64,000 nucleotides of DNA from an uncultured Myxococcales bacterium (GTDB lineage Bacteria; Myxococcota_A; UBA9042; UBA3505): positions 5,039 through 69,038 of the forward strand of contig CAZQPP010000001.1 in NCBI GenBank assembly GCA_964594295.1, written 5' to 3'. Of the stretch, positions 40,669 through 62,790 are shown piece by piece; the stretch's first letter is position 1, and the number at the start of each line of letters is the position of its first letter. The position numbers and the translations under genes were made by a program. Under the pieces are notes generated by a model. That model was given only the letters and a program-made list of their open reading frames with translations, did no database searches and was not told the origin of the DNA.

Positions 40669-40954
40669 CTTCAGCGCCGTCATCGGGCAGCTCCGCGCCA
40701 CGGGGAGGGCGCAGATGCGATTCGAGGGCGGCTCGATGCGCCCGCTGCTCGAGTCGGGGCGGGTATACACCTTCGAGTTTGCCGAGCGCTACGAGGTAGG
40801 GGACATGGTCTTCTGCCGCGTGGACGGCAGGTACATCGACGCCCACCTGGTGCGCGAGGTAGACGCCGAGAAGGGATACTTGATCGGCAACAACCTGGGA
40901 GGGAAGCCGGACGGGTGGACCTGGGAGGTCTTCGGGCGGATCGTGGACGCTTGA
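40649..40954 (+). CDS. Small protein with a LexA/S24-peptidase-like signature (tentative)
   Basis: ORF-track 101 aa, overlapping the RNA ligase gene by 20 bp. EGGSMRPLL resembles the GxSMxP Ser-nucleophile motif of S24/S26 peptidases. A downstream Lys (AEKGYLIGNN) could be the general base. Confidence 0.35.
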   Translation: MSMDRRDFSAVIGQLRATGRAQMRFEGGSMRPLLESGRVYTFEFAERYEVGDMVFCRVDGRYIDAHLVREVDAEKGYLIGNNLGGKPDGWTWEVFGRIVDA

Positions 40955-42189
40955 GCCTCCGTGCGCGCCCCCCGCGGCTGGTGCGGCCGGGAGGTAGTGG
41001 TACGGTAGCGCCGAATCCCGCGGAGGACGAAGTGGGCGGAAAGTGGGCTATCTCGGAGCTTTCGGTCGGCCAGGAGGTCGAGGCGACCTTCTGGGCGAAC
41101 CCGGTCAAGGAGTCGCGTCACCGCTACCGGGCTACCCATCTCGACGGGAAGCGTGCCCCGAAGGTGGTGCTCTCGAGCGATCGGCGCATCGCGCCCGGCG
41201 TGCCGTGCATCGTGCGGATCACCACGATCGCGAAGACGGCGCGGCCGGATCGCGGGCACATCGAGGTGGAGCTGGTTCACGCCCTCGACCTCCCCCTCGA
41301 AGGGGTCTACGTCGACCCCGTCGTGAAGACCAAGCTGCAGGTCTTGCTCGAGAGCGGGCTGAACATCCTGCTCGACGGGCCGCAGGGCTGCGGAAAGACG
41401 GTCATCGCGCGCGCGATCGCAGACACCCTCGGCATGAGGTTCGTCTTCTTCAACTGCAGCTCGGTCATCGAGCCGACGGACTTCCTCGCGACCATCCAGG
41501 TCCGAGCCTCGGAGGGGGGGCACCCGGTCACGGACTTCGTGAAGACCGATGTCCTGCGTGCGCTGGAGGAGGCCTCCGAGAACGACGGCGAGCGCTACCT
41601 GGTGTTCTTCGACGAGCTCAACCGCTGCCGGGAGAGCGCCCGCAATGCCCTGATGCCCGCCCTCGACGCTACCCGGAGAGTGTTCAACCCCATCGCCAAC
41701 GACTTCCTGGCGATCCCGCAGAACGTGCAGTTCATCGCCGCGGTCAACAGCGGGCGAGAGTTCAGCGGCACCTTCGGCGTGGATCCTGCACAGCTCGACC
41801 GCTTCGCACCCATCGCCATGGACTACCCGCCGCCGGCGGAGGAGCGGAAGCTGCTCGCCAAGCGTCACCCCGAGCTGAGCAGGCCTACTATCGAGTTTGC
41901 CGTCGAGGTCGCCCACGAGATCCGCTCCGCCCCTGACCTCGACCAGGGCCTGAGCGTGCGGGCCACCGACGAGGCGTGCCTCTACCTGAAGCACCCCCTC
42001 ATCGCGAGCAGGAGGGAGAGCATGATGGCCGAGGTGCTCAAGTCCTCCTACTGCGGCCGTTTCTTCGGGCGCTGGAACGACAGCTCCTCGGACGCCGGCG
42101 TGGTCTGGGTGATCATCGAGCGCAAGCTCGAGGAGCGCGCTCGGGCGAAGCACAGGCGCAGCGCGAAGGCGAAGGCCCGCCGCTCTTAG
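40915..42189 (+). CDS. MoxR-like AAA+ ATPase (AAA_5 type)
   Basis: ORF-track 424 aa; the N-terminal ~45 aa may be an over-extension. Walker A LLDGPQGCGKTV. Walker B YLVFFDELNR. Sensor FIAAVN. Lys-rich tail. Confidence 0.8.
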   Translation: MDLGGLRADRGRLSLRARPPRLVRPGGSGTVAPNPAEDEVGGKWAISELSVGQEVEATFWANPVKESRHRYRATHLDGKRAPKVVLSSDRRIAPGVPCIVRITTIAKTARPDRGHIEVELVHALDLPLEGVYVDPVVKTKLQVLLESGLNILLDGPQGCGKTVIARAIADTLGMRFVFFNCSSVIEPTDFLATIQVRASEGGHPVTDFVKTDVLRALEEASENDGERYLVFFDELNRCRESARNALMPALDATRRVFNPIANDFLAIPQNVQFIAAVNSGREFSGTFGVDPAQLDRFAPIAMDYPPPAEERKLLAKRHPELSRPTIEFAVEVAHEIRSAPDLDQGLSVRATDEACLYLKHPLIASRRESMMAEVLKSSYCGRFFGRWNDSSSDAGVVWVIIERKLEERARAKHRRSAKAKARRS

Positions 42190-48341: not shown

Positions 48342-50870
48342 GTGGCTAGCAGCCGCGCCGGCCGGTCGCAAGCTGCGACCTCGTCGACGGCGCTGCCGTC
48401 TGGGAGCGGAGAGGCGCAGCCCACGACACAGCTCCGGCAGCTGGACACAAAGTGTCCAAGGCGGGGTGTAGGTTCCTCTCCCAGAGCCGCCGAGGAGACC
48501 CAATTGCACGACTTCGTACACCTGCACGTGCGCTCCCATTGCTCCTACATGGCCAGCAGCGTCAGGGTGCGTGAGCTGGTTCCAAGGGTGGCCGAGCTCG
48601 GCATGCCCGCGGTCGCGCTGACGGACTGCGAATATTTGGCGGGTGCGATCGATCTCTACACTCGCGCTCGGCGAGCAGGCATCCGCCCCATCCTCGGATT
48701 CGCCGCCACCATGGCCTCGTGTGCCGCCGGCGAGGTCGACGGCGATGCTCGCCACGAGATGCTGCTGCTGGCCGCCGGCATCGAGGGCTACCGCAACCTC
48801 TGCCGGCTGGTTCGCGCGGCCGGCGACGCCCGTGCAGCGACGGGGCGGTCCGGGCTCGAGCTTGCAAGCCTGGCGGAGCACTCGGCCGGCCTGGTGCTGC
48901 TGACCGGAGGCCTCCGCGGAGGGCTGGCGCGGCTCCTGATGCGCGGCGAGCGCGACGCCGCCCGGGAGCGGCTATGCCTGCTCCGCGATGCCCTGGGGCC
49001 GGAACGAGTCTTCGTCGAGCTGCGCGGCAACGAGACCCATGAGGAGCGGGAGGCGAACCGCGGTCTCGTCGAGCTCGCGCGGGCGGAGGGTGCGCCGATC
49101 GTCGCCACGGCGGATGTGCGCCACCTGCGCCCGGAGGACAGGGAGGCCTACGAGGTCTTGAGAGCCATCGGCAGGGGAGGGCGGGTGAGCGAGGAGGCGA
49201 GCCCGGAGCAAGAGCCGGCGCGGCTTCACCTGGCCTCGCCCGACGAGATGGCCGCGCGCTTCGGCGAGCTCCCGGAGGCCTTGTCGGCCACGCTGCGCGT
49301 CGCCGAGATCTGCGATGTCGAGATCGACGCGGGCACCGTGCGCATGCCGAAGCTGGAGCGTGGGCTCGGGCAATCCGCCGCGGCCCTCCTCGCCGAGAAG
49401 GTGGCCGCCGGGCTGCGGAGGCGCCTCGGAGACGCCGGTGAGGACACCGGGGTTAAAGGTGTCTCGATCTACGAGGAGCGGGTGCGCCGCGAGCTCACCG
49501 TCATCGAGGAGGTCGGCTTCACGGATTACTTCCTCGTCGTCGCCGACTACGTGCGGTGGGCGAGGGAGGCCGGGGTGCCGGTCGGGCCGGGCCGCGGCTC
49601 CGTCGGTGGGAGCGTGGTCGCCTGGGCGCTTCGAATCACCGAGATCGACCCGATCCGCCACGGGCTGCTCTTCGAGCGCTTCATGAACGCCGAGCGGGCC
49701 AACGCGCCGGTCATCTCCGTGGACCTCTGCCCGGTGCGCAGGCTGGAGGTGGCCGACTACATTTCGAGGAGGCACGGCATCGAGAAGGTCGCCTGGGTCG
49801 GCGAGCACGAGGAGATCCTCGGCGGGGCGCTCGTGGGCGACGTCGCCGACGCCCTCGGGATGAGCGGCGCGCGGATCGAGCGGATCCGCGACCTCGTTCC
49901 GAGCCACCGGTGGTCCTCCGTGCGGTACGCATCGGAGCACGATGAGGAGCTGCGCGACCTTGTGAGCCGGGACGCCGCCTATGCGCGCCTGCTCGCTCTG
50001 GCCGACCAGCTCTGGGGCCTCTACCGCGGCCCCACGGCCCACCCACCGAACCTGGTCATCTCCGACGAGCCCCTCGCGGGCATCGTGCCCGCAACCCGCG
50101 ATGTCCGGGGCCTCCTGACAACGCAGTACGGCAGATACGATGTCGAGGACCTTGGCTTCTTCCCCCTCGAGCTGCTCGGGCTCGAAGTGCTCACGGTCCT
50201 CGACCACGCCGAGAAGCTCGTGCGTCAGGGCCCGGTGCCGCGTTTCTGCCTCGAGTCCATCCCCTTGGACGGCGAGGAGGCCTTCGAGCTCATCTCATCG
50301 GGCGACACAGGCGACATCTTCCAGGTCGGGTCTGCCGGCTTCCGTGAGCTGCTCGCGTGGCTCCAACCGAGCTGCTTCGAAGACCTCTGCGCGGCGGTCG
50401 CCCTGTATCGGCCCGGGGGCCTCGGCTCGGGGATGCTCGCGGACTTCGGCAAGCGCAAGCGCGGCGAGGCAGAGGTGCTCTACCCCCATCCCATCCTCGA
50501 GGGGTGCTTGAAGGAGACCTACGGGGTCATGGTCTACCAGGAGCAGGTCATGCGGGCCGTCGTCGAGGTCGCGGGCTTCACGATGGACGGGGCCGACCTG
50601 CTCAGGCGAGCGCTCGGCACGAAGAAGGCTGACGACGTGGAGAAGATGAGGTGCCTCTTCCTGGAGGGCGCCGCGGAGCGCGGCCTCGGAGCAGGCGAGG
50701 CTGGCGAGATCTTCTCGGCGCTCGAGCACTACGCCGGGTACGGCTTCAACAAGGCCCACTCGGTAGCCTACTGCCTGCTCACCTACCGCTGCGCCTACCT
50801 GAAGGCTCACTTCCCGGATCTCTACTCGGAGGCCGTGGAGCGGTGCGCCAGCGGGCCGTCCTCGGGCTGA
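48342..50870 (+). CDS. DnaE-like DNA polymerase III alpha fragment: PHP domain plus polymerase core, lacking the C-terminal third (beta-clamp-binding, OB, tail). Possible gene remnant.
   Basis: ORF-track 842 aa. The likely true start is TTG 48504, preceded by GAGGAG with a 6-nt spacer. PHP motif FVHLHVRSHCSY. Conserved palm/fingers motif NKAHSVAYCLLTYRCAYLKAHFP lies close to the stop. An unrelated minus-strand gene begins 78 bp downstream. Confidence 0.6.
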   Translation: MASSRAGRSQAATSSTALPSGSGEAQPTTQLRQLDTKCPRRGVGSSPRAAEETQLHDFVHLHVRSHCSYMASSVRVRELVPRVAELGMPAVALTDCEYLAGAIDLYTRARRAGIRPILGFAATMASCAAGEVDGDARHEMLLLAAGIEGYRNLCRLVRAAGDARAATGRSGLELASLAEHSAGLVLLTGGLRGGLARLLMRGERDAARERLCLLRDALGPERVFVELRGNETHEEREANRGLVELARAEGAPIVATADVRHLRPEDREAYEVLRAIGRGGRVSEEASPEQEPARLHLASPDEMAARFGELPEALSATLRVAEICDVEIDAGTVRMPKLERGLGQSAAALLAEKVAAGLRRRLGDAGEDTGVKGVSIYEERVRRELTVIEEVGFTDYFLVVADYVRWAREAGVPVGPGRGSVGGSVVAWALRITEIDPIRHGLLFERFMNAERANAPVISVDLCPVRRLEVADYISRRHGIEKVAWVGEHEEILGGALVGDVADALGMSGARIERIRDLVPSHRWSSVRYASEHDEELRDLVSRDAAYARLLALADQLWGLYRGPTAHPPNLVISDEPLAGIVPATRDVRGLLTTQYGRYDVEDLGFFPLELLGLEVLTVLDHAEKLVRQGPVPRFCLESIPLDGEEAFELISSGDTGDIFQVGSAGFRELLAWLQPSCFEDLCAAVALYRPGGLGSGMLADFGKRKRGEAEVLYPHPILEGCLKETYGVMVYQEQVMRAVVEVAGFTMDGADLLRRALGTKKADDVEKMRCLFLEGAAERGLGAGEAGEIFSALEHYAGYGFNKAHSVAYCLLTYRCAYLKAHFPDLYSEAVERCASGPSSG

Positions 50871-50947: not shown

Positions 50948-51358
50948 TCAGTGGAGATCTTCGCCGGCCCGTCTCGCGGCATCGCGCACGACCTGGCGCA
51001 CGCGCTCACGCGTCAGGTTGATCGCGGCGCCGACGTCGGCGAGGGTCTGCCGACCGTGCTCGGCTATGTCCAGAGCGCAGGTGAAGGGGATCTCCCAGGG
51101 CGGGCGGTCTGGGAAGTTGAGCTTGATGGCACGGCTGCCGGGCTTGACGTCCAGGTAGAGGTGGTATCGACAGCCTACGAAGGGGCAAGGTCGCGGGCCG
51201 TCGCGACAATCCTCGCGACTGCGCGGGCGGTGGTGCTCCATCCAGTCCACGAGCTCCTTGCCGGCGGCCACCTCCTCGGGAGAGAGCCTCGGCGACGAGA
51301 TCGTGCGGGGCCTGGCCACGGCGCCGCGTCTTCCTTCGCGCTCCCGTGTCTTGGGCAT
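50948..51358 (-). CDS. Sigma-70 region-4-like HTH DNA-binding protein (putative regulator)
   Basis: ORF-track 136 aa. The C-terminal segment [26 protein letters not shown] matches the region 4.2 HTH pattern (TLEEIG..LGVTRERIRQIE..AL.KL). Divergent from the ATPase gene at 51506. Confidence 0.55.
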
Positions 51359-51505: not shown

Positions 51506-53998
51506 ATGTCGGAGCAGATCGCGACTCTCGCCCTTCAGGGGACGCCGTACACCGCGTTGGCCGGCTTCGCCGTGCGGAAGATCCTCTCGGCGGAGATCTT
51601 CTCCCACCAGGTGGGCTTGGGAGCGGGTTACCCGACGGCGCCCCTGGTCGCGGCGGTCTGTCGAGATCGTTGGACGGACCTCGGAGGTACGCTCTGCTGC
51701 TTGCCGGAACCCGTCGAGGGCCTGCTCGTGCTCGGGGCCGGCGCCGAGTGGGCTCCGTCGTCTCGCGAGCAGGCCTTTTGCGCCTTCCTCGCCGTCGGGC
51801 GGGGTGGCTGCACAGAGGAAGCGCGGAGCCACGCCGCTCGACAGGTGAAGAGCTTGTGGCTGCTCGTGTCGACCACCCTGGACTACCTTCAGCTCGAGAT
51901 GATCGACTCCGTGCAGGCGCTCCGCAACGTCTACGGAGCGGCGGACGCCGGCCGCACCGTGGAGATCCGGCGCCGACTCGAGCGCGTCACCATCGAGCAG
52001 GGCATCCTCGAGCGCAGACCGCTGGGCTTCTCCGGTACGGGCGACGCGCGCGAGCGGGTGCATGAACGAGGTGATGCCCCCGGGTTGGAGCACCTCTTCC
52101 CGTGGGTACCGAGCGACGACCCCTGGGGTCGCCTGGTCGACGCCCTCGAGCGCTCGGCGCCCGCTGCCCTGCTGGTGCACTTCCAGGGTTTGGAGCGCGC
52201 CCCCGAGCGCTGCATGGACCAGGCCCGCGGGGCGGTGTCGCGAGCCTACGACCTCCAGCACGACCCGCGGTGGGGGAAGACGGGAGCGCCCTCCGGCCTC
52301 GATCGCCAGGTGGCGGATCTCTACGACGCGGCGGTTGACCGGCTGGCCCGGATGAACGGCAACGTCCTGGCCATGCGCGTGTTCAGCGCGGGCGACATCG
52401 CCGAGACGCCGGGCCTGCAGGCCGTGGCGGTCCGCGCCATCGACGACGCCTCGGTCGATCCCGACCGGAAGCGGCGCCTGCCCCTGTTCCACGGTGGCGC
52501 CCGCACGGGGGTCGTGGGGTCGGAGGAGGTGCTCGTGCCATTCGCAGAGCCCGATCTCGACATCCTGTTCAGCCCGGAGGAGGCGGGTGGGGTCCTGCGG
52601 ACACCCGCCCCGCCGGCACACGACCTGGGCACGATGCGGGTGCTGCGCTCGCGGACGGCAGCCTGCACGGGCAAATCCGGCGATGACTGCGTCCTCGGAG
52701 TCAACGCCCACCGCGGTATCCGCCAGGAGATCGCGGTGGAGAGCCCCATGCGCTTCCGGCACACCTACGTCGTCGGCCAGACCGGGACCGGGAAATCCAC
52801 TCTGCTGCTGCACATGGTCCTCCACGACATACGGCGTGGACGAGGCGTTGCCGTTCTCGACCCCCACGGCACCCTCATCGAGGACATCCTGAAGCACACG
52901 CCCAAGGAACGCGCGGAGGATGTCGTCATCGTGGACCCGACCGACATCGAGCGGCCGGTCGGCTTCAACGTGCTCCGCATCACGGCCCACGACCCGACTC
53001 GCTACAGGCACGAGCGGGACATCCTCATCGACGATCTCTACTCCTACATCCACCTCACCTACGATCTGATGAAGGTGGGCGGGCCGCGCTTCGAAGACCA
53101 CTTCCGCTCGATGTTGCGTCTTCTCATGGGAGACGAGGCCCCCTCCCCGCCGCTCGTCCCCAACCTGATGATGCTGCGCCCGGCATACAGGAGCCAGGAG
53201 CTTCGTGACCGTCTGCGCAAACGGCTCACGCAGGACGACGCTGTGCTCCAGAGCTTCTTCGAAGAGGCGGAGGGTGTAACCTCGAGCGACGAAAGGCTCG
53301 TCAACCTGGCGCCCTACGTCACCAGCAAGTTCAACCGCTTCCTCGCCGACGCGGCGCTCAGGAACATGACCTGCCAGGACGGCATCCTCGACTTCGGCGA
53401 GATCATAGAGAGCAAGCGCATCTTGCTCTTCAACCTCGGAAAGGGCCGATTTGGAGAGCAGGCCGCAGGGCTCCTCGCTGCTCAGCTGGTCTCCCGGCTG
53501 CGTCTAGCGGCCATGGGACGCAAGATCGACCATCACACCCCTCCCTTCTTCCTCTACGCCGACGAGTTCCAGATGTTCGCCGGCGAGCGCTTCGACGAGC
53601 TCCTCGCGGAGGCTCGCAAGTTCCGCCTCGGCCTCGTCCTCGCGCACCAGTTCGCCGGCCAGCTCCCCGAGAAGACGCTCCACGCCATCTTGGGCAACGT
53701 CGGCACCGTAGTCGCTCTCCGTACCGGTGCCCGCGACGCGGAGATGCTCGCCCCCCTCTTCACCCCCAGCTTCCTCGCGCGAGACCTGTCGAGCCTCCCG
53801 AACTTCGTCGCATACGCCCGCAGCGCCGGCCAGCTCGGCACCGAGCCCTTCAGCCTCGAGCTGGCCCCGCCGCCCGCCAAGGGCGATCCCAAGCTCGCCG
53901 AGGCCGTACGCCAGCTCTCCCGGCTGAAGCACGGCCGGGACCGCTGTATCGTAGAAGCCGAGATCAACGCGACCTACCGCGCGTTCCTCTCGGGATGA
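51506..53998 (+). CDS. FtsK/HerA/TraG-superfamily P-loop ATPase (AAA_10/DUF87-like) with a ~400-aa N-terminal region of unknown function
   Basis: ORF-track 830 aa. AGGAAG lies 3 nt before the ATG. Walker A HTYVVGQTGTGKST. Walker B PFFLYADEFQ. The C-terminal region resembles the TraD/TraG-type coupling-protein tail. Confidence 0.75.
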   Translation: MSEQIATLALQGTPYTALAGFAVRKILSAEIFSHQVGLGAGYPTAPLVAAVCRDRWTDLGGTLCCLPEPVEGLLVLGAGAEWAPSSREQAFCAFLAVGRGGCTEEARSHAARQVKSLWLLVSTTLDYLQLEMIDSVQALRNVYGAADAGRTVEIRRRLERVTIEQGILERRPLGFSGTGDARERVHERGDAPGLEHLFPWVPSDDPWGRLVDALERSAPAALLVHFQGLERAPERCMDQARGAVSRAYDLQHDPRWGKTGAPSGLDRQVADLYDAAVDRLARMNGNVLAMRVFSAGDIAETPGLQAVAVRAIDDASVDPDRKRRLPLFHGGARTGVVGSEEVLVPFAEPDLDILFSPEEAGGVLRTPAPPAHDLGTMRVLRSRTAACTGKSGDDCVLGVNAHRGIRQEIAVESPMRFRHTYVVGQTGTGKSTLLLHMVLHDIRRGRGVAVLDPHGTLIEDILKHTPKERAEDVVIVDPTDIERPVGFNVLRITAHDPTRYRHERDILIDDLYSYIHLTYDLMKVGGPRFEDHFRSMLRLLMGDEAPSPPLVPNLMMLRPAYRSQELRDRLRKRLTQDDAVLQSFFEEAEGVTSSDERLVNLAPYVTSKFNRFLADAALRNMTCQDGILDFGEIIESKRILLFNLGKGRFGEQAAGLLAAQLVSRLRLAAMGRKIDHHTPPFFLYADEFQMFAGERFDELLAEARKFRLGLVLAHQFAGQLPEKTLHAILGNVGTVVALRTGARDAEMLAPLFTPSFLARDLSSLPNFVAYARSAGQLGTEPFSLELAPPPAKGDPKLAEAVRQLSRLKHGRDRCIVEAEINATYRAFLSG

Positions 53999-54076
53999 GG
54001 CGGAGAAGGACGCGCGCGGGAGACGCACAGCTGCTACACAGCACAACAGGATCGGCCACCGGCAAGGAGGTTTGAT

Positions 54077-54418
54077 ATGTGGCTCTTCACCGACTTCGGC
54101 TTCTTCAGCGTGGTCCAGAAGCCCGACACGAGCTGCCTGACCGTCAGGTCCAGGGTCGGGGACGATCTCGACCGGCTGCGGGAGCGCTACCTCCCCGAGC
54201 TCTCCGATACCGTGGTGGGCGGGGGAACCGACTACCCCTTCCGTGCCACGGTGTCCCACGCGGACTTCGCCGCCGGGCTATCGAGGATCGCGTCCGCCCT
54301 CGACTACTCCAACTTCAAGTACCGGGTCGAGGGCACCCTGGGTCGCGAGCGTTCGTCGGTGTACGGGCGAGTGTGGCAGGATCTCCTCGCGCTTGAGACG
54401 CCTGATGAGCGGGAGTGA
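54077..54418 (+). CDS. Hypothetical small protein
   Basis: ORF-track 113 aa. Strong RBS AAGGAGG 7 nt before the ATG. No recognisable motif. Confidence 0.5.
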   Translation: MWLFTDFGFFSVVQKPDTSCLTVRSRVGDDLDRLRERYLPELSDTVVGGGTDYPFRATVSHADFAAGLSRIASALDYSNFKYRVEGTLGRERSSVYGRVWQDLLALETPDERE

Positions 54419-54542
54419 CGCCTCCGGCCTCGCGCCAAGGTGGGCGGCATGTCCGGAGAACGCCCGGCGTGGCATCTTCCGGCCGTAGCACCTGACGCCC
54501 TCGTCGCGGTGCCCCGAACAACCGACACACAGGGAGGCTGGA

Positions 54543-56288
54543 TTGCGGGCCGACAATGACTGCGCCGTGTTGGAGCTCCGGGTCGTGGGCTCCCTCGCGG
54601 GTACGTTCCGCGTGAAGCGCTACCAGCGCGGGTACCGCTGGGGCGAAGAGGAGGTGACGCGCCTGCTCGACGACATCTGGTGCAGCCGTGGGCAGCCCTA
54701 CTGCCTTCAACCCGTCGTGGTCAAGGCCGCCGGCCCCGATGAGTGGGAGCTGGTCGACGGCCAGCAACGCCTGACGACCCTGCTGCTGATCCTGCTGTAC
54801 ATGAAGCGAGCGGAGCTGAAGCGGATCGAGCCGAAGTACAGGATCCGCTACGACACCCGCCCCGAGCTCGCCAGGTACTTCGAGACCTTCGATCCCGACC
54901 TGGCCAAGACGAACATCGACCTGTACCACCTTCACCAGGCCTACTCGTGTATCGCCGGGTGGTTCGAGTCGCCGGACCGCGAGAACGGGGATCCTCAGCT
55001 GGCCGCCGACGACATCTACGGCTGCCTCAGCCGGACGGTGCGCGTGATCTGGTATCGCGTGCCGGAGGCGACCAGAGCCACGACGCTGTTCCGCCGGCTG
55101 AACGTGGGCAAGATCTCCTTGACCAACGCCGAGCTCGTCAAGGCGTTGCTGCTCTCGCGCAGCCGCTCGGAGGTGTCCGGATCGAGCCGCGCCGAGGAGC
55201 GGGCCGCGCAGTGGGACGCCATCGAGCGGGACCTGCAGGACGAAGACCTGTGGGCCTTTGTCAGCGACGGTCACGAGGCCGGCCGGGAGGCGACGCGTAT
55301 CTCCCTGCTGCTCGACACCCTCGCGGGCGGGCTCCGTGGGCGCAAGCGCCCCCGCGTCCACACCTTCGACGTGCTCCGCACCAGGATCGAGGCCGACGCC
55401 GAGGCATTCTGGACCAGCGTGGTAGACCTGTACGCCCGCATCCTCGGGTGGTTCGCCGACCGCAGCGTCTACCACAAGGTGGGTTACCTGGTCGCCACGG
55501 GCGTTGCGTTCGCCGACCTGGTCGGGCTGGCCGAGGGCAAACGCCGAAGCGAATTCGAGGGCGCGCTCGACGCGGCCATTCGTGACCGCCTGAGGTTGAC
55601 CGCCTCACGGGTACACGATCTGAGGTACGGGACGAGCGGGCACGAGGAGAAGCTGCACCGGCTCCTGCTGCTCATGAACGTCGAGAGCGTGCGACGGATG
55701 GAGAACACCTCCGAGCGGTATCCGTTCAGGCTGCACCGTGAGGGCACCGGGCGCGACAAGCCGCGCTGGTCGCTGGAGCACATCCACGCGCAGCACGCGG
55801 AGCAACTGAACAAGGAGGTCGAGAGGCGGAGCTGGCTGCAGGAGCACAAGCGCTCGTTGCAGGATCTGCCGGACTCAGCGGGCGCCGAGAATCGGAGCCT
55901 CCGCCGCCGCATCGACGTGGCGCTCGGCAAGGTTGACGGCGACACCTTCGACAAGCTGTCTGGCGATGTGGCCGCGCACTTCTCGCGCGACTCCGGCGCC
56001 GAGATGCACGCGATCGGCAACTTGGCCCTGCTGGAGAGTGGACAGAACACGGCGCTCTCCAACTCGGTCTTCGAGGTGAAGCGCCGCAAGATCCTCGAGC
56101 TTGACCGTGCCGGTGAGTACATCCCGATTTGCACGCGCCGCGTGTTCTTGAAGTACTACGCGGGTGCCGACGCGCAGCAGGTGCACTTCTGGAGCCGCCG
56201 CGACCGCGAGGCCTACCTGGATGCGATGTTGGGCAAGGAGCGCGGTGTGCTCCGCCCGTACCTCATGCCGGAGGCCGAAGGCGCATGA
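54543..56288 (+). CDS. GmrSD-family type IV restriction enzyme-like protein (DUF262 ParB-like N-terminal domain plus DUF1524 HNH-like C-terminal domain)
   Basis: ORF-track 581 aa. TTG start preceded by GGGAGG with a 5-nt spacer. DUF262 signature LVDGQQRLTTL. DUF1524 signature WSLEHIHAQH...GNLALLESGQNTALSN. Confidence 0.85.
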   Translation: MRADNDCAVLELRVVGSLAGTFRVKRYQRGYRWGEEEVTRLLDDIWCSRGQPYCLQPVVVKAAGPDEWELVDGQQRLTTLLLILLYMKRAELKRIEPKYRIRYDTRPELARYFETFDPDLAKTNIDLYHLHQAYSCIAGWFESPDRENGDPQLAADDIYGCLSRTVRVIWYRVPEATRATTLFRRLNVGKISLTNAELVKALLLSRSRSEVSGSSRAEERAAQWDAIERDLQDEDLWAFVSDGHEAGREATRISLLLDTLAGGLRGRKRPRVHTFDVLRTRIEADAEAFWTSVVDLYARILGWFADRSVYHKVGYLVATGVAFADLVGLAEGKRRSEFEGALDAAIRDRLRLTASRVHDLRYGTSGHEEKLHRLLLLMNVESVRRMENTSERYPFRLHREGTGRDKPRWSLEHIHAQHAEQLNKEVERRSWLQEHKRSLQDLPDSAGAENRSLRRRIDVALGKVDGDTFDKLSGDVAAHFSRDSGAEMHAIGNLALLESGQNTALSNSVFEVKRRKILELDRAGEYIPICTRRVFLKYYAGADAQQVHFWSRRDREAYLDAMLGKERGVLRPYLMPEAEGA

Positions 56289-58534
56289 AGTCCCGCCTGA
56301 CATCCTACTCCGCCTTGTTCGATGAACCGGGCGGCGGTCACCCCGCCGTGGAGGCGGTGGAGATCCCGCTGATCCAGCGTGACTACGCCCAGGGGCGGGA
56401 GGGCAAGAAGGTGGAGCGTATCCGCCGCGACTTCCTGACCGTCCTCCTCGAGGCCGTGGACGGAGGGGAGGCCGTCAACCTGGACTTCGTGTACGGCGAC
56501 GTCGAGGCAGGAGTGCTACGTCCCCTGGACGGGCAGCAGCGCCTGACCACGCTCTTCCTCCTGCACTGGTACCTGGCCTGGCGGATCGACCGCCCGCTGT
56601 CGGAGCTCGGCTGGACGCGTTTCACCTACGCCACCCGGGCCACGGCGCGCACCTTCTGCCAGCGCCTGGTCGCCAACAGGCCCCCGGCCGCGACGCCGAA
56701 TGTCTCCGAGTGGATCACGGACCAGCCCTGGTATCTGTATACCTGGGATCACGACCCGACCGTGAAGGCGATGCTGGTGATGCTGGACGCGATCCACGAG
56801 CGCTTCGGCGCGATCGACCACGCCGCCGCCTGGCACCGCCTGGTGGAGGCTTCGCCCGGGTCCGTCACCTTCCACCTGCTGCCGCTGGAGGGCATGGGGC
56901 TCAACGAGGACCTCTATATCAAGATGAACTCGCGCGGGAAGCCGCTGACCGAGTTCGAGAACTTCAAGGCGCGTTTCGAGGAGCTGCTCGAGGGGAGCTG
57001 TGAAGATCGCGTGGAGGAGGTCGCGCGCAAGATAGACACGACCTGGGCGGACGTGTTGTGGCCGTTTGACGGCGGAGACCACGTGGTCGACGACGAGTTC
57101 ATGCGCTACTTCCACTTCGTCACCGACGTGATCACGTGGGAGAACGGAGAGGACCCGACGAGTGACGTCGAGGCGCAGGCGACCAGGCTGTTCGGTCCCG
57201 AGGCCGACGTGCCCGCGGGGAACCTGGACCGCCTTGTCAGGATGTTCGACACCTGGGTCGGCGTGGACGTGAGGGCGGCCTTCGAGGCCCTGTTTCGCGG
57301 CCCCGACCAGGCGGAGAGCGCGAACGGGCCGCACCGCCCGGTGCTGTTCGAGGCGCCCGCGAACCTGTTCGAGGCCTGCTGTCGTGACTACGGACGCGTC
57401 CGTGGCAAGGCACGCGACTTCAGCTTGAGCTCCACCCTGCTGCTCTACGCGGTGCTCGTCCACCGCCTCGAAGGCACCGCCGACTTCCTGCGCCGCCTCC
57501 GCGTGCTCCGAAACCTGCTCGCTTTCGCGGGTAACGAACTGCGGGCCGACACCATGGCCCAGTTCGTCAGGGACGCGCGCGAGCTCGTCGTCACGGGATC
57601 TCTCGACGACCTGCCGGCCTTCACCCGCGCTCGAGTCGCCGAGGAGCGGGCGAAGCGGGATCTGGTCGGAACCCACCCGAACCTCGAGCCGACCCTGCAC
57701 CGCCTGGAGGACCACCCGCTGCTACAGGGCACGCTCGTCGTTTTCGAGCTCGACCCGGCCAGCCTGAAGCGGCGTGCCGACGCGTTCTTGCGTCTGTACG
57801 ACGGTCGATCTCGTTATCCAGAGGTCACCGGGGCGTTGCTGGCCTGCGGCGACTACTCCAGGCGCCAGCGCAACGAGCGCTACTTCCAGCTGGGCTCACC
57901 CAAGAACGACGGTCCCTGGCGGTTGCTGTTCACCGCCGACCCGCGGGACAAGCAGGCGCGAGCGCGCCGGGCGCTCGGTGCTCTGCTGGACGCCGTCGCC
58001 GCCCCCGACATCGGCGGAGCGTTGACCACGGTGCAACGGAGCTTCGTCGACGAATGCGAGCGCGCGGCCCGCTTCGACTGGCGCTACTACCTCGTCCGCT
58101 ATCCCGCGATGCGCACCGGCGACAACGGCGTCTACGTCGGCTGGGAGGGCAGGCTGCGCTACCAGATCTGTATGCTCCGCGGCGTGAGCGTGGCTGGCTA
58201 CTACCGTGACGCCTACCTGTGGGCGCTGCTCGAAGAGAGCGACGCTTCGGGGGCGGTCGAGGACACGTGGTTCACCGGGTACGAGCACCTGGAGCGCTGG
58301 ATTACGCTGAAGCGAAGCCGCGCCGGGATTCGGTGCGTGGACGAGGGCCTTCGGCTCGACCCGCCTCGTCGGGTCCGCCACCGGCGGGCTTGGGACGAGG
58401 TCTGCACCAGGCACGGTGTGGTCGACGGTCTGCTGCCCGTCCCCCAGACCGCGGGCGATCCGCCCGTCGACACGGTCGATCGCGTGTCGCTGGGAGCGGC
58501 ATTGCTCCGAGACCTCGTCCGGGCCGGGTGCTGA
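56285..58534 (+). CDS. DUF262 (ParB-like NTPase/nuclease) domain protein, second subunit of the GmrSD-like pair
   Basis: ATG 56285 (MKSRLTSYSALFDE...) overlaps the upstream stop (ATGA). The ORF track shows an over-extended 801-aa version starting at 56129. DUF262 signature PLDGQQRLTTLFLLH. ~749 aa. Confidence 0.8.
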   Translation: MKSRLTSYSALFDEPGGGHPAVEAVEIPLIQRDYAQGREGKKVERIRRDFLTVLLEAVDGGEAVNLDFVYGDVEAGVLRPLDGQQRLTTLFLLHWYLAWRIDRPLSELGWTRFTYATRATARTFCQRLVANRPPAATPNVSEWITDQPWYLYTWDHDPTVKAMLVMLDAIHERFGAIDHAAAWHRLVEASPGSVTFHLLPLEGMGLNEDLYIKMNSRGKPLTEFENFKARFEELLEGSCEDRVEEVARKIDTTWADVLWPFDGGDHVVDDEFMRYFHFVTDVITWENGEDPTSDVEAQATRLFGPEADVPAGNLDRLVRMFDTWVGVDVRAAFEALFRGPDQAESANGPHRPVLFEAPANLFEACCRDYGRVRGKARDFSLSSTLLLYAVLVHRLEGTADFLRRLRVLRNLLAFAGNELRADTMAQFVRDARELVVTGSLDDLPAFTRARVAEERAKRDLVGTHPNLEPTLHRLEDHPLLQGTLVVFELDPASLKRRADAFLRLYDGRSRYPEVTGALLACGDYSRRQRNERYFQLGSPKNDGPWRLLFTADPRDKQARARRALGALLDAVAAPDIGGALTTVQRSFVDECERAARFDWRYYLVRYPAMRTGDNGVYVGWEGRLRYQICMLRGVSVAGYYRDAYLWALLEESDASGAVEDTWFTGYEHLERWITLKRSRAGIRCVDEGLRLDPPRRVRHRRAWDEVCTRHGVVDGLLPVPQTAGDPPVDTVDRVSLGAALLRDLVRAGC

Positions 58535-58544
58535 CGGCCCGGCG

Positions 58545-59477
58545 TCACTTGAGGTCGCAGAGCTCCACCTCCTCCAGCCGAAACGGCGGTGGAGAAGGGG
58601 TGCGGGCAACGAGCACGGCGGCAAGCGCGGGAAGCTCCCTGCCGTGCCAGGGGCGCGTTCGACTCGTCGTCCACAGCCGCGCCCCGGCCTCGAAGACCAC
58701 GCGCAGATCGCAGGGCTCGGTCTCCGCGCCGCCCCCGAAGCGCAGGAGCATGCCGTCCTTTCCCTCGACGAGGTCGACTCCGCACATCGCTCGGCGCGAG
58801 GTGGCCTCTCCCGGCTCGTCCGTTGTCACACCCAGCAGGGGGATCCTGGCGAAAGGGGCGCGGATCGCATAGACGCTCCCGCCCTCTCCGACCTCGAAGC
58901 CAACCGGGTAGTCGTCGCCGCGGACCTCTCGTGTCCTCGCTGCGTGCTCTCCGGTCCACCGGAGAACAAAGCCCCCGCGCCAGGGGTCGAGGGCGAGCTT
59001 CCACGGTGGGCCTCCTGAGGCGAGGCTCTCGTAGAAACGCCTGAACATGCGCACGATTATCAGCAGGAAGACCTCGCCCTGCCTGAGCGTGTAGGGCACG
59101 TCGACCTCCGGCACGGGCCGGCGCTGCTCGGGGTCCAGGAAGAGCACGCGGTTGGGCCGCTCCTCCTTCGGGAGGGTGAAGAGGCTGCGCTGTGCCTCGA
59201 GGTCAAAGCCGGGGATGGGCGGCCGGCCGTCTCGGAGAGCCCCCTCCCAGTGTCCCTGCTCCATCTCGGCGATCGCGTACTTCAGCGGCCTTGGCGGCTC
59301 CGAGAACTCGGCGCGCACGTCCTCGATCGCCTTGTCCGACAGGTTGGGAAAGTGCACGCAGAGGGGGCGGATGGCTCGGAGCAGGAGCTCGTGCTCGCGA
59401 AGGCTCACGACCTCTTCGCGCAGCAACATCTCGAGGTAGGGGTCGATGGGGTGCATGGTGGCTGCGAAGGTTAGCAC
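58545..59477 (-). CDS. Hypothetical protein
   Basis: ORF-track 310 aa, GTG start; the internal ATG at 59456 is an alternative. No recognisable motif. Protein-like composition. Confidence 0.45.
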   Translation of the reverse strand: MLTFAATMHPIDPYLEMLLREEVVSLREHELLLRAIRPLCVHFPNLSDKAIEDVRAEFSEPPRPLKYAIAEMEQGHWEGALRDGRPPIPGFDLEAQRSLFTLPKEERPNRVLFLDPEQRRPVPEVDVPYTLRQGEVFLLIIVRMFRRFYESLASGGPPWKLALDPWRGGFVLRWTGEHAARTREVRGDDYPVGFEVGEGGSVYAIRAPFARIPLLGVTTDEPGEATSRRAMCGVDLVEGKDGMLLRFGGGAETEPCDLRVVFEAGARLWTTSRTRPWHGRELPALAAVLVARTPSPPPFRLEEVELCDLK

Positions 59478-59605
59478 GCCGTGCGGCTGAGGGTGCGGGC
59501 GAGGGCAGCGGTGAAGGCTCCGCTCTCCGGGAGCGTGTTAGGGTGCGAGGAGGCCCAAAGCCGCCACCAAGCCGGCGCGCGACTGTCGATTCTCTCCGGA
59601 GGCCC

Positions 59606-60340
59606 ATGAGAGCACAGCTTCTTTCCGACGCCCACCTGGAGTTCCACAGCGACGGAGGCCGCCGCTTCATCGTGAGCCTCGATCCCCGCGATGTGGACGT
59701 CTTGGTGCTGGCCGGGGATATCTGCGCCGGCGACCGGGCCGGCGCGACCCTCGCGGCCCTGTGCGCCCGCTTCCCCGAGGTCGTCTACGTCTACGGGAAC
59801 CACGAGCTCTACGGGAGCGACTTCGACAGCCTTCGGGGTGCGCTCGCCCACGCCGCCCGGGGCAACCCGAATCTCCACGTCCTCGACTGCGGCGTGGCGG
59901 AGATAGGCGGGGTGCGTTTCGTGGGCACTCCTCTGTGGTTCCCCTTCCAGGAGGACAACCACAAGTACCAGGCCGCCCTGAATGACTTCCGGCTGATCGC
60001 CGACTTCAGCTCGCGGGTCTACGAAGAGCACGAGCGCGCCACGCGTTTCCTCAGCGCAAACCTGCGCGAGGGTGATGTCGTGGTCACCCATCACCTCCCC
60101 AGCAGGAAGAGCGTGCCGCCGTGCTACGTGGATGACCCCCTGACCCGCTTCTTCGTCGCGCCGATGGACGAGCTGATCCGCCGCGCTCGACCTCGGCTGT
60201 GGCTTCACGGGCACACGCACGACAGCGCCGACTACCACCTTGGGTCGACGCGGGTGGTCGCCAACCCCACCGGGTACCACCCCTTCGCGCTCAACGAGAG
60301 CTACGAGGAGAAGCTGGTGATCGAGCTGGCCGCGCCTTGA
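59606..60340 (+). CDS. Calcineurin-like metallophosphoesterase
   Basis: ATG 59606 (MRAQLLSDAHLE...) with GGAGG upstream. The ORF-track entry 59192..60340 is over-extended. Motifs LSDAHL, AGDICAGD, YGNHE, VVTHHLP, LHGHTH. Confidence 0.8.
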   Translation: MRAQLLSDAHLEFHSDGGRRFIVSLDPRDVDVLVLAGDICAGDRAGATLAALCARFPEVVYVYGNHELYGSDFDSLRGALAHAARGNPNLHVLDCGVAEIGGVRFVGTPLWFPFQEDNHKYQAALNDFRLIADFSSRVYEEHERATRFLSANLREGDVVVTHHLPSRKSVPPCYVDDPLTRFFVAPMDELIRRARPRLWLHGHTHDSADYHLGSTRVVANPTGYHPFALNESYEEKLVIELAAP

Positions 60341-60365
60341 GCCTCTTCGAGGTGTTGGCATCGCC

Positions 60366-61286
60366 TCAGACCGGGTATGCCGCCAGGTGCACGAGCTCCT
60401 CGTCGGCCACGAGCGCCGAGCAGGTCATGCCGGCGGCTTCCATCCTCAGGTCCGTGCCGACACCGGGAGGGCGGTGACAGGACGGCGCGGCGCTCGCGAG
60501 GGCTGCGAGGAGCCTGGTGGGGTCGGGCAGCGCTTCGGGTCGCGCCGGAGAGTCCGAATCGGCGATGCTCGCGTCGAGTGCGTAGGAGCGGACGAGCTGC
60601 TCGTGGTGAGCTCGGTAGCACTCCTCCGACCCAAGCAGGTCGATGCCGAGGAGCTTGCCGTCGAGGAAAGCGGCGACGCCGGTCTGGCCTTCGCGCGGGG
60701 GCAGCGCGTGCACGTGCGCGTCAACCTCGCCGGTCGTGGCGTCGAGCACGTCGGACATGCAGGCGGTGCGTGACGTGACGCGGGTTACCGTCGACAGCTC
60801 GTCGACCTCGTGCCAAACGCTGCTCTGGCAAGCGTCGTAGGAGCCTCGCCGCCGCAGGCTCTCCAGCACCCGCACCTGCTTGTTGCGCCGCATGGTCGAG
60901 CTGAGGCCTCGCCTCTTGCTCCGGAACCTGCCGCTCCGCCGGGACCAACGGCCGGCCTCCACGCAGGAGACCGGGATGGACAGCTTGCTGCCCGGCGAGA
61001 CGAGGATAGTCGTGTTCACGATCCGGTTCTGCTTGGCGCCGATGAGCTCGGAGCCGTCGAGGAGCAGCAGGTGGCGCTGGCCCTCGTGCTTGACGAAGAG
61101 GGTCTGGACCCGACCGGCCTCGCTCACCTCGTCCACCACCGTGTCGCCTCGCTCGATGGCGTCGGCGAGGGCCGACACCTCCGGGCCGCTTGGAGGTCCG
61201 AACAAGGGCACGAGCAACAGGCTACCGTGCCCGACAGGCTCACCGGCCACTACCTCGAGAAGGGATTCAGGAAACAGAACGCTCAT
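60366..61286 (-). CDS. Hypothetical protein
   Basis: ATG 61286-61284 (MSVLFPESLL...) preceded by GGAGGTG. The ORF track is extended to 61358. No recognisable motif. Contains LLLLDGSELIGAKQNRIVNTTILV. Confidence 0.5.
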   Translation of the reverse strand: MSVLFPESLLEVVAGEPVGHGSLLLVPLFGPPSGPEVSALADAIERGDTVVDEVSEAGRVQTLFVKHEGQRHLLLLDGSELIGAKQNRIVNTTILVSPGSKLSIPVSCVEAGRWSRRSGRFRSKRRGLSSTMRRNKQVRVLESLRRRGSYDACQSSVWHEVDELSTVTRVTSRTACMSDVLDATTGEVDAHVHALPPREGQTGVAAFLDGKLLGIDLLGSEECYRAHHEQLVRSYALDASIADSDSPARPEALPDPTRLLAALASAAPSCHRPPGVGTDLRMEAAGMTCSALVADEELVHLAAYPV

Positions 61287-61476
61287 GGACACCTCCGAAT
61301 ACACGGCAGACGAAGCTCGGCTGCGCTTCTGACATCGGAGCCATGCCGGCAGGCCCACGTGTCCGCGGCCGGGGGGCGGCGCGCGAGCCTGTGGTGGCGT
61401 GTCCGTGGACCGTTGTTTGGGCCCGTAGTATCGTGCCTTCCAGCCGGATTGGGCCGGGTCGAACAGGGAGCACGAA

Positions 61477-62790
61477 ATGGGAATCGACTGGAACAGGCTG
61501 CGCTATCGCGGTGACCTGGCGGACGTCAGGACGCTCTTCGAGACCTACCGCGTCGAAGACTACCTCGACACGGTCGAGGAGAACCGGCGTCAGGTAGACC
61601 TGAGGCTCCGCGAGCAGCTGCTCAGCTCCGGAATTCGCCTGACGGAGAGGCTGTCGCCTCGAATCTACCGTCTCTACGGGGAGGTCTGCAGCGCCATCGA
61701 CATCGACTTCGAGGCCGAGGTCTTCTGCCTCCCCGACACGGACATCAACGCCTTCGCGATGCTCGATCTCAAGGAGAGCGGAGAGTTCTTCCTCATCGGC
61801 ATGACGGCCGGAGCCCTCGAGAAGCTCGACGACGCCGAGATCAAGGCCGTGCTCGGGCACGAGATCGGGCACTTCCTGTTCGGGAACAACCGCCTGAACG
61901 GGCTGATCTGTACCGACGACGAAAACCCCGCGGCCACCGTCCTACCCGCCTTCGGCGAGAGCCTCTTCTTGAGGTGGCGCAAGAAGGCCGAGATCAGCGC
62001 CGACAGGGTGGGCCTCGTCGCAAACCGCGACTTCGAGGCCGCCGCGCGAGGCCTGCTCAAGGCCACGTTCGGATTGAGCGAGCGAAACCTGAACCTCGAC
62101 ATCGAGGCCCTGCTCGCCCAGATCGACGAGGTCAAGGACAACCCCGAGCTGATCCAGGCGACCTTCGCGAGCCACCCGATCCTGCCGATCCGCCTGAAGT
62201 CCCTCGAGCTCTTCTCGAGGTCTCAGAAGGCGCGCGCCGCCAGCCTCAAGGTTCGGGGCAGGCCCTTGTCCGACAAGAGGCTCGAGGACTCGGTCGACGA
62301 GCTCATCAAGCTGACTCGCAGGCACCCATTCGATCCTGTCGCGAAGGCCGTCATGGAGGTCGTGGCCTGCGGGGGCGCGCTTGTCCTCGGCGCGGACGGT
62401 GACGTGCACGACGAGGAGGTCAAGGTCCTCATTCAGATCCTCCACAGGTGGTTTACCGACGAGCCCGAAGACGTGATCACCGTGGACAAGGCGGAGATCG
62501 AGAAGAGGCTCCCGGCGGCCATCGAGGTGGTCAACGAGGAGGGGGGCCACGAGGACAAGGGCTTCATCCTGTCGCGGCTCGCCGACGTGGCGATGGCTGA
62601 CGGCGCGCTCGTGGACGTGGAGGGAACGGTCATCCTCGACATCGGGGAAGCCTTGGAGCTCTCCTCGAAGAGGACCTACGGCGTCATGGTCGGGGCGGCA
62701 CAGTCGGTGGGCTTCAGGACGGACGTGCGCCTGAGCCGCATGGCTCAGCAGGTGCGCGAAGAGCTGCGTGTAGGGTTCGGGTTGTCCTGA
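61477..62790 (+). CDS. M48-family (HtpX/Ste24-like) zinc metallopeptidase with a C-terminal TerB-like domain
   Basis: ORF-track 437 aa. GGGAG lies 6 nt before the ATG. HExxH in AVLGHEIGHFLFGNN. Downstream EISADRVGL. C-terminal ~150 aa (DEEVKVLIQILHRWF...LSRLADVAMADGAL) is TerB-like. Confidence 0.8.
   Translation: MGIDWNRLRYRGDLADVRTLFETYRVEDYLDTVEENRRQVDLRLREQLLSSGIRLTERLSPRIYRLYGEVCSAIDIDFEAEVFCLPDTDINAFAMLDLKESGEFFLIGMTAGALEKLDDAEIKAVLGHEIGHFLFGNNRLNGLICTDDENPAATVLPAFGESLFLRWRKKAEISADRVGLVANRDFEAAARGLLKATFGLSERNLNLDIEALLAQIDEVKDNPELIQATFASHPILPIRLKSLELFSRSQKARAASLKVRGRPLSDKRLEDSVDELIKLTRRHPFDPVAKAVMEVVACGGALVLGADGDVHDEEVKVLIQILHRWFTDEPEDVITVDKAEIEKRLPAAIEVVNEEGGHEDKGFILSRLADVAMADGALVDVEGTVILDIGEALELSSKRTYGVMVGAAQSVGFRTDVRLSRMAQQVREELRVGFGLS

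What the first reader, a model, noticed from the sequence alone, without database searches (positions are those of the whole stretch)
54077..58534. GmrSD-like type IV restriction pair (DUF262-DUF1524 plus DUF262-only) preceded by a well-translated small ORF
Seen: DGQQRLTTL (DUF262) occurs in both proteins. EHIHAQH...NLALL..N (DUF1524 HNH-like) occurs in the first. There is an ATGA overlap between them. The 113-aa upstream ORF has AAGGAGG 7 nt before the ATG. Established knowledge: DUF262/DUF1524 proteins (GmrSD, SspE, BrxU) are modification-dependent restriction nucleases. Inference: an active type IV system. The extra DUF262-only partner and the small ORF are not part of the canonical single-chain GmrSD.
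Basis: partly seen in the sequence, partly recalled or inferred. Interest (0 to 1): 0.5.

Follow-up and report, generated by a model that had tools for sequence, protein, structure and literature searches.

The report
GrwAB-type two-protein type IV restriction system
The two large genes are an intact copy of GrwAB, a two-protein phage-defence nuclease described in Vibrio cholerae in 2025 that cuts DNA carrying modified bases; the small gene in front is a real but unrelated neighbour.

Summary
Two co-oriented genes overlap by ATGA. The first (54543-56288, 581 aa) has DUF262 plus a DUF1524 His-Me nuclease. The second (56285-58534, 749 aa) has DUF262 plus about 500 aa with no known domain.

This pair is not new. 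It is an orthologue of GrwAB, a two-gene type IV restriction system shown in V. cholerae (Nat Microbiol 2025) to need both proteins and to block phages with glucosyl-hmC or 7-deazaguanine DNA.
- By BLASTP, the 581-aa protein matches GrwA (194 bits) and the 749-aa protein matches GrwB (210 bits). Matches to TgvA/TgvB and the cross-matches reach only 23-58 bits.
- The authors' own GrwAB hit list contains a Paraburkholderia pair whose GrwB is 50% identical to the window's over its full length.
- In 77 of 77 related loci across several phyla the two genes are adjacent, and all catalytic motifs are invariant.

The 113-aa ORF is a real, strongly conserved gene, but it is absent from 0 of 80 GrwAB loci checked. 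Elsewhere its domain is fused to, or sits next to, NUDIX hydrolases. It is therefore a chance neighbour.

Verdict: an ordinary new member of a known system. Interest is low. The NUDIX-partner domain is the only uncharacterised item.

The parts
54543..56288 (+). grwA-like gene, 581 aa: N-terminal DUF262 (NTPase/sensor), helical linker, C-terminal DUF1524 His-Me nuclease
   Evidence: ORF. Pfam GmrSD_N 1e-26 and GmrSD_C 4e-7. 35% identity over 354 aa, 194 bits, E 6e-60 to V. cholerae A1552 GrwA residues 1-399. Homologue immediately upstream of the grwB homologue in 77 of 77 loci.
54532..54537 (+). GGGAGG Shine-Dalgarno-like site, 5 nt before the TTG start of grwA
   Evidence: Read directly from the sequence. 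The 581-aa start was also chosen by the JGI and ENA gene callers.
54756..54770 (+). DGQQR motif of GrwA-like protein (aa 72-76); R76 corresponds to GrwA R81
   Evidence: Position. Invariant in 71 of 71 homologues. GrwA R81A abolishes defence in V. cholerae GrwAB (PMC12137116).
55776..56063 (+). His-Me finger region of the GrwA-like protein: E412-H413-I414-H415, then N493, N502, N507, with an unusually long ~80-aa insert between the His and the first Asn
   Evidence: Positions. E412, H413, N493, N502 and N507 are invariant in 71 of 71 homologues, and H415 in 70 of 71. The His-to-Asn spacing is 78-92 across the family and the Asn-to-Asn spacing is always 9, matching GrwA H431/N521/N530.
56285..56288 (+). 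ATGA start/stop overlap coupling grwA and grwB
   Evidence: Read from the sequence. The gap between the two genes is -4, -1 or about +1 nt in most of 74 related loci.
56285..58534 (+). grwB-like gene, 749 aa: N-terminal DUF262, then ~500 aa of helical and alpha/beta domains without known family
   Evidence: Pfam GmrSD_N only. 44% identity over 295 aa, 210 bits, E 7e-65 to V. cholerae A1552 GrwB residues 1-399. 50% identity over 100% of length to Paraburkholderia BUPH_RS31185, which the GrwAB authors list as GrwB.
56528..56542 (+). DGQQR motif of GrwB-like protein (aa 82-86); R86 has the same residue number as the mutated GrwB R86
   Evidence: Position. Invariant in 72 of 72 homologues. GrwB R86A abolishes defence (PMC12137116).
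54077..54418 (+). Adjacent 113-aa gene that is NOT part of the system: a solo copy of an undescribed N-terminal domain that elsewhere partners with NUDIX hydrolases
   Evidence: 259 homologues at 50-65% identity with a conserved Met-Trp start. 6,914 cluster representatives. 10 of 10 long members tested carry Pfam NUDIX directly after the domain. Absent from 80 of 80 GrwAB loci. No NUDIX box anywhere in the window.

Best explanation

Shown here:
- Orthology to GrwAB.
- Obligate pairing of the two genes.
- Intact, invariant motifs.

Inferred from the V. cholerae experiments and from BrxU/SspE biochemistry:
- The two proteins act together, probably as a complex.
- Both DUF262 (ParB-like NTPase) domains bind and hydrolyse NTP and help sense hypermodified bases in incoming DNA (sugar-modified hmC, 7-deazaguanine).
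- The His-Me finger of the first protein (H413, N493, N502) then cuts the modified DNA. The host's unmodified DNA is spared.

The long C-terminal part of the second protein has no recognisable fold. It is probably a sensing or regulatory module.

The 113-aa gene upstream is an unrelated neighbour.
For: 1. Direct homology. The 581-aa protein matches V. cholerae GrwA(1-399) at 194 bits, 35% identity over 354 aa. The 749-aa protein matches GrwB(1-399) at 210 bits, 44% over 295 aa. Cross-comparisons and TgvA/TgvB give only 23-58 bits. The reference sequences come from the supplement of bioRxiv 10.1101/2024.11.23.624991 and of PMC11411939.

2. The authors' MacSyFinder GrwAB hit no. 22 is Paraburkholderia phenoliruptrix pSYMBR3459, BUPH_RS31180/31185. 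That GrwB is 49.7% identical to the window's over 100% of its length and is P0206 in alignment A1.

3. Same architecture and gene order as GrwAB: DUF262-DUF1524 first, then DUF262 plus unknown domains.

4. Linkage. The GrwA homologue lies directly upstream on the same strand in 77 of 77 loci that have upstream DNA. These loci span Pseudomonadota, Myxococcota, Actinomycetota, Bacteroidota and Bacillota. The genes mostly overlap by 4 or 1 nt.

5. Every residue whose mutation kills GrwAB has an invariant counterpart: A R76, H413, N493, N502; B R86.

6. No third gene recurs in more than 5 of 80 loci.

7. Relatives sit in defence contexts or are flanked by transposases: directly after BREX brxL in one case, flanked by IS elements in another. 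The window itself is rich in conflict genes.
Against: - No activity was measured, and the targets of this particular orthologue are unknown.
- Only the first 399 residues of V. cholerae GrwA and GrwB were available. Homology of the nuclease domain and of the GrwB C-terminus to the type proteins is therefore shown only indirectly, through the Paraburkholderia pair in the authors' list.
- BLASTP alignment to V. cholerae GrwB stops at window residue 279, so the C-terminal domains may differ between clades.
- Identity to the type proteins is moderate (35-44%), so specificity could have diverged.
- The Pfam GmrSD_C match is partial (30 residues), because of the ~80-aa insert in the His-Me finger.
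Confidence: 0.88

Rival explanations
1. The pair is a TgvAB-type system, the other known two-protein GmrSD-like system, from V. cholerae VPI-2.
For: Both systems combine a DUF262-only protein with a DUF262-DUF1524 protein, and both need both proteins.
Against: - Gene order is reversed: tgvA, the DUF262-only gene, comes first.
- BLASTP of the window proteins to TgvA/TgvB(1-399) gives only 23-58 bits, against 194-210 bits to GrwA/GrwB.
- TgvB has a 31-aa His-to-Asn spacing (H571/N602), against 80 aa here.
- No type I RM genes flank the pair.
- The GrwAB paper itself states that GrwB and TgvA are distinct beyond DUF262.
Confidence: 0.02
2. The first protein is a self-sufficient single-chain GmrSD/HEC-06/BrxU-like enzyme. 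The second is an independent or decaying DUF262 paralogue that merely sits next to it.
For: The first protein has the complete single-chain architecture. Its best PADLOC matches are the single-protein HEC-06 (1e-25) and Orf5. HEC-06 and BrxU work alone.
Against: - Co-occurrence is strict in 77 of 77 loci, with translational coupling.
- The second protein is under strong constraint along its whole length, with 90 positions at least 95% conserved, including the NTPase motifs.
- In V. cholerae, neither GrwA nor GrwB alone protects, and GrwB R86A abolishes defence.
- The HEC-06 match is only 88 bits and mostly covers aa 21-93.
Confidence: 0.05
3. The unit is a three-gene system in which the 113-aa protein is a regulator, sensor or antitoxin for the nuclease pair.
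For: Same strand, 124 nt upstream, strong Shine-Dalgarno site. No terminator-like site was detected between the genes. The same arrangement appears in several metagenome contigs of the same organism.
Against: - The small ORF is absent from 80 of 80 related loci and from the two closest relatives.
- No recurrent flanking family exists.
- The small-ORF family has its own consistent partner, NUDIX, by fusion and by adjacency.
- The contigs are identical sequence, not independent evidence.
Confidence: 0.03
4. The pair senses a host DNA backbone modification, like SspE or DndI (phosphorothioate-dependent), rather than phage base modifications.
Against: - These matches cover only the shared DUF262 domain. 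Sequence E-values to the solved structures are 3.5e-4 to 0.66.
- No ssp or dnd genes were seen among the neighbours scanned or as recurrent neighbours in 80 loci.
- The experimentally characterised orthologue responds to phage base modification. Escape mutants map to dpdA.
Confidence: 0.02

Closest known systems
GrwAB (V. cholerae WASA-lineage VSP-II; Nat Microbiol 2025, PMC12137116)
   Same: - Gene order and domain architecture.
- Sequence homology of both proteins (194 and 210 bits).
- All mutated functional residues are conserved.
- Long His-to-Asn insert in the nuclease.
- Tight two-gene operon.
- A 50%-identical relative is in the authors' hit list.
   Different: - 35-44% identity to the type proteins.
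- High-GC host, probably a myxobacterium (inference from 69% GC and WD40/kinase-rich neighbours).
- C-terminal part of GrwB could not be compared with the V. cholerae protein, because only 399 aa were available.
- Phage targets untested.
TgvAB (V. cholerae VPI-2; PMC11411939)
   Same: Two-protein GmrSD-like type IV system. Both proteins carry DUF262 and one carries DUF1524. Both are required.
   Different: - Opposite gene order.
- Embedded in a type I RM operon.
- The DUF262-only partner is unrelated beyond DUF262.
- Only 23-58 bits to the window proteins.
Single-chain GmrSD family (Eco94GmrSD, BrxU/HEC-05, HEC-06, SspE)
   Same: DUF262 NTPase with QR/DGQQR/FxxxN motifs, plus a DUF1524 His-Me nuclease, in the first protein.
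   Different: - Those enzymes act as single proteins (homodimers for BrxU and SspE). Here a second DUF262 protein is an invariable partner.
- Sequence similarity is limited to motif regions: HEC-06 88 bits, and PDB E-values of at least 3.5e-4.

Membership tests
GrwAB | Two adjacent co-oriented genes: first DUF262 + DUF1524, second DUF262 + long C-terminal region of unknown domains | tested here: met
   Pfam scans, ORF map and ATGA overlap, description of GrwAB.
GrwAB | Specific sequence homology of each protein to V. cholerae GrwA / GrwB, stronger than to other GmrSD-like proteins | tested here: met
   194 bits to GrwA and 210 bits to GrwB, against 23-58 bits to TgvA/TgvB and in the cross-comparisons. 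Only residues 1-399 of the reference proteins were available.
GrwAB | Recognised by the describing authors' GrwAB models | tested here: inconclusive
   The models themselves could not be run. A full-length 50%-identical homologue (Paraburkholderia BUPH_RS31180/31185) is hit no. 22 in their table, which supports membership indirectly.
GrwAB | DUF262 motifs (QR, DGQQR, F/YxxxN) in both proteins, and His-Me residues H...N...N in GrwA | tested here: met
   A: Q28R29, D72-R76, F183/N187, H413, N493, N502. B: Q31R32, D82-R86, Y211/N215. All are invariant in 71-72 homologues.
GrwAB | Both proteins required; protection against phages with hypermodified DNA (glc/ara-hmC, 7-deazaguanine) | not testable with these tools
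   Known only for the V. cholerae system. Here it is inferred from obligate gene pairing.
GrwAB | GrwA-GrwB physical complex | not tested
The paper reports only an AlphaFold3 model.
TgvAB | DUF262-only gene (tgvA) precedes the DUF262-DUF1524 gene (tgvB); embedded in a type I RM operon | tested here: not met
   The order is reversed here, and there are no hsd genes among the neighbours. See for the TgvAB arrangement.
TgvAB | Sequence homology to VC1767 / VC1766 | tested here: not met
   Best scores are 58 bits (A581 vs TgvA) and 35 bits (B749 vs TgvA), confined to the DUF262 domain.
Single-chain GmrSD (GmrSD/BrxU/HEC-06) | One polypeptide with DUF262 + DUF1524 is sufficient for defence | not testable with these tools
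   The first protein has the architecture. However, its clade always carries the second gene, and GrwA alone is inactive in V. cholerae.
SspE / DndI (PT-sensing) | Genetic association with sspABCD or dndBCDE modification genes | tested here: not met
   None among the scanned neighbours of the window, and no recurrent neighbour in 80 loci.

The most novel reading that the evidence does not exclude
The pair itself is a known system. The most novel reading left open concerns the 113-aa gene.

It is a solo copy of a very large, apparently undescribed domain family:
- 6,914 cluster representatives.
- No model in Pfam, NCBIfam, PHROGs or PADLOC.
- Confident AF2 fold with no structural match.
- The domain is normally fused to, or followed by, a NUDIX hydrolase, and sits beside HD_4, WYL-WCX and DNA-repair genes.

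It could be the sensor or regulatory module of an uncharacterised nucleotide-hydrolysing stress or defence pathway. Here it is uncoupled from NUDIX and lies in a conflict island next to GrwAB. Conceivably it cross-talks with the restriction system.
Probability: 0.2. Interest if true: 0.5.

Novelty: new member of a known kind. Interest (0 to 1): 0.22.

Why it matters
This extends the experimentally defined GrwAB system to a high-GC, probably myxobacterial, genome. It also shows that the A-B pairing, the translational coupling and all functional residues are invariant across at least five phyla. That supports the idea that two-protein GmrSD-like enzymes are a widespread, self-contained class of type IV restriction system.

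For annotation, genes now labelled only 'DUF262 domain-containing protein' can be named GrwA and GrwB.

No open question becomes newly testable. The mechanism of modified-base sensing and the role of the GrwB C-terminus remain unknown.

Tried and rejected
- NCBIfam has no model for any of the three proteins. PHROGs has none for the small ORF.
- Searches of PDB sequences with the GrwB profile and with the GrwA protein gave only marginal DUF262 motif hits.
- Test of whether the GrwB C-terminus is a degenerate DUF1524: hhalign of the GrwB C-terminal profile against the GrwA C-terminal profile gave probability 0.3%. Pfam scans of 25 GrwB members gave only GmrSD_N. The idea is rejected at the sequence level.
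- The promoter/terminator scan of 53800-59600 was uninformative.
- The published (PMC) supplement with the GrwAB hit table was truncated before that table. The preprint's supplement had it, but each sequence was cut at ~400 residues.
- The TgvAB supplement listed none of the genera that carry the window's family.
- The source organism could not be named: the cluster look-up returned no names.
- A regex search for a NUDIX box in all six frames of the window found none.
Full report
**Observation.** The window is about 69% G+C. Three co-oriented ORFs with the host's codon signature (GC3 0.86-0.91) occupy 54077-58534.

- The 113-aa ORF starts at the ATG at 54077. AAGGAGG lies at 54064-54070, with a spacer of 6 nt rather than the reported 7.
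- The 581-aa ORF runs 54543-56288. It has a TTG start with GGGAGG 5 nt upstream, and the same start was chosen by the JGI and ENA gene callers. It carries DGQQRLTTL at aa 72-80, EHIHAQH at 412-418, GNLALL at 492-497 and N502.
- The third ORF is listed from an upstream TTG, but its likely start is the ATG at 56285. That ATG forms ATGA with the stop of the previous gene and has GGAGG 10 nt upstream. This gives 749 aa, with DGQQRLTTL at 82-90.
- Pfam finds GmrSD_N (DUF262) plus a partial GmrSD_C (DUF1524) in the first large protein. In the second it finds GmrSD_N only, and nothing in the small ORF.

**The pair is an obligate two-gene module.**

- The 749-aa protein has more than 8,000 relatives. 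The best are about 50% identical over the full length, in Mesorhizobium, Paraburkholderia, Sorangium, Corallococcus, Archangium and many metagenomes.
- A scan of one genome per species found at least 582 relatives.
- Of the 80 best loci, 77 have upstream DNA. In all 77, a homologue of the 581-aa protein (34-55% identity) lies immediately upstream on the same strand. These loci span Pseudomonadota, Myxococcota, Actinomycetota, Bacteroidota and Bacillota.
- The two genes mostly overlap by 4 or 1 nt, or are separated by about 1 nt.
- No other ORF family recurs within 4 kb in more than 5 of the 80 loci.
- Invariant residues in 71 homologues of the first protein: Q28-R29, D72-G-Q-Q-R76, F183/N187, E412-H413-I414, N493, N502 and N507.
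- Invariant residues in 72 homologues of the second protein: Q31-R32, D82-G-Q-Q-R86 and Y211-I-K-M-N215. About 90 positions spread along the whole protein are at least 95% conserved.

**Identification.** The literature search led to two two-protein GmrSD-like systems from V. cholerae.

- TgvAB has the DUF262-only gene first and is embedded in a type I RM operon.
[quoted passage not shown] Both are required. It is active against Tevenvirinae (sugar-modified hmC) and Queuovirinae (7-deazaguanine). Escape mutants map to dpdA. Activity is lost in GrwA R81A, H431A, N521A and N530A, and in GrwB R86A.

The preprint's supplement gives the first ~399 residues of A1552 GrwA and GrwB. The TgvAB paper's supplement gives the same for VC1766 and VC1767. 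BLASTP results:

| Window protein | Reference (residues 1-399) | Score | Identity |
|---|---|---|---|
| 581 aa | GrwA | 194 bits, E 6e-60 | 35% over 354 aa |
| 749 aa | GrwB | 210 bits, E 7e-65 | 44% over 295 aa |
| either | cross-comparisons, TgvA, TgvB | 23-58 bits | - |

Further support:

- The authors' GrwAB hit no. 22 is Paraburkholderia phenoliruptrix pSYMBR3459, BUPH_RS31180/31185. That GrwB is 49.7% identical to the window's over 100% of its length and is already in my alignment as P0206.
- Residue numbering agrees. The DGQQR arginine is R86 in both GrwB proteins.
- The two catalytic Asn are 9 residues apart in GrwA (N521, N530), in the window protein (N493, N502) and in all 71 homologues.
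- The unusually long His-to-Asn insert is 80 aa here and 78-92 aa across the family. It is 90 aa in GrwA but only 31 aa in TgvB.

The pair is therefore a GrwAB orthologue.

**Mechanism.**

- *Shown:* orthology, obligate pairing, translational coupling and intact motifs.
- *Inferred from the V. cholerae genetics and from BrxU/SspE work as summarised:* the two proteins act together. NTP binding and hydrolysis by both DUF262 domains is needed. The His-Me finger of the first protein cuts DNA that carries hypermodified bases, and unmodified host DNA is spared.
- *Unknown:* which modifications this orthologue recognises.

**GrwB C-terminus.** The AF2 model has mean pLDDT 78.6. It shows the DUF262 domain, a long helical region at about residues 240-610, and an alpha/beta domain at about 610-749.

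- Foldseek against PDB finds nothing.
- Profile-profile comparison with the GrwA C-terminal half is negative.
- Pfam finds nothing in 25 members.

This agrees with the published 'unknown domains'.

**The small ORF.** It is a real gene.

- It has 259 close homologues with a conserved Met-Trp start and 17 invariant residues.
- A profile search finds 6,914 cluster representatives.
- The AF2 model is confident (pLDDT 91.4).
- No model in Pfam, NCBIfam, PADLOC or PHROGs matches it, and there is no PDB sequence or fold match.

It is not part of the restriction system.

- It is absent from 80 of 80 GrwAB loci and from the two closest relatives of the window's GrwB. One of those relatives follows BREX pglZ-brxL, and the other is flanked by transposases.
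- Its own partner is a NUDIX hydrolase. All 10 long family members tested carry Pfam NUDIX directly after the domain.
- About half of the best 150 representatives are longer than 200 aa.
- Stand-alone copies are typically followed by a NUDIX gene and preceded by an HD_4 gene, with WYL-WCX regulators and repair genes nearby.
- The window has no NUDIX box, so this is a solo copy that happens to lie next to grwAB.

**Context.** The surrounding 30 kb is rich in conflict-type genes:

- TIR-NPHP3_N-WD40
- kinase-WD40
- RNA ligase plus AAA_5
- a DnaE-like protein lacking its C-terminal domains
- a TraD/HerA-like ATPase (phrog_5156; PADLOC mad8)
- Metallophos, ARPP-1 and M48-TerB

The pair ends against a convergent gene at 58545-59477.

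**Verdict.** This is a correct observation of an intact member of an already described system. It is a new member of a known kind, and interest is low.

Noticed in passing
window 54077-54418 (+); related loci L005, L007-L009, L090, L093: The 113-aa ORF represents a very large domain family (6,914 cluster representatives) with no model in Pfam, NCBIfam, PHROGs or PADLOC and no structural match. The domain is always N-terminal. It is fused to NUDIX in 10 of 10 long members tested, or followed by a NUDIX gene, often with HD_4 upstream and WYL-WCX regulators nearby. The window copy is solo, with no NUDIX box in the 64 kb.
   Followed up: partly
window 51506-53998 (+): An 830-aa P-loop ATPase of the TraD/VirD4/HerA type. 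It matches phrog_5156 (4e-34, unknown function) and PADLOC mad8 (1e-15, MADS system component). It is not linked to GrwAB in other genomes.
   Followed up: partly
window 48342-50870 (+) and 50948-51358 (-): A DnaE-like protein of 842 aa with PHP, pol III alpha and finger domains but no C-terminal domains. Next to it is a 136-aa protein with a weak sigma-70 region 4 match. The role is unclear.
   Followed up: no
window 32043-42189 (+): A run of conflict-type genes: TIR-NPHP3_N(STAND)-WD40 (1347 aa), Pkinase-WD40 (1254 aa), RNA ligase (227 aa) and an AAA_5 ATPase (424 aa). A 1742-aa HEAT-repeat protein lies on the opposite strand at 43081-48309.
   Followed up: no
window 58545-62790: Downstream neighbours: a 310-aa protein with no family match (minus strand, convergent with grwB), a Metallophos phosphoesterase, an ARPP-1 domain protein (4e-80) and an M48 peptidase-TerB fusion.
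   Followed up: no
L096 5223-9274; L095 5220-9262; L094 4273-8250: The closest GrwAB relatives sit directly after BREX pglZ-brxL (the position BrxU occupies in other BREX loci), between IS110/mutator/ISAZ013 transposases, and on a Paraburkholderia symbiosis plasmid beside TcmP and Gp37/Gp68 genes and IS21. In the Paraburkholderia locus, grwA is annotated as two overlapping pieces, so it is possibly frameshifted.
   Followed up: partly
[not shown]
   Followed up: partly
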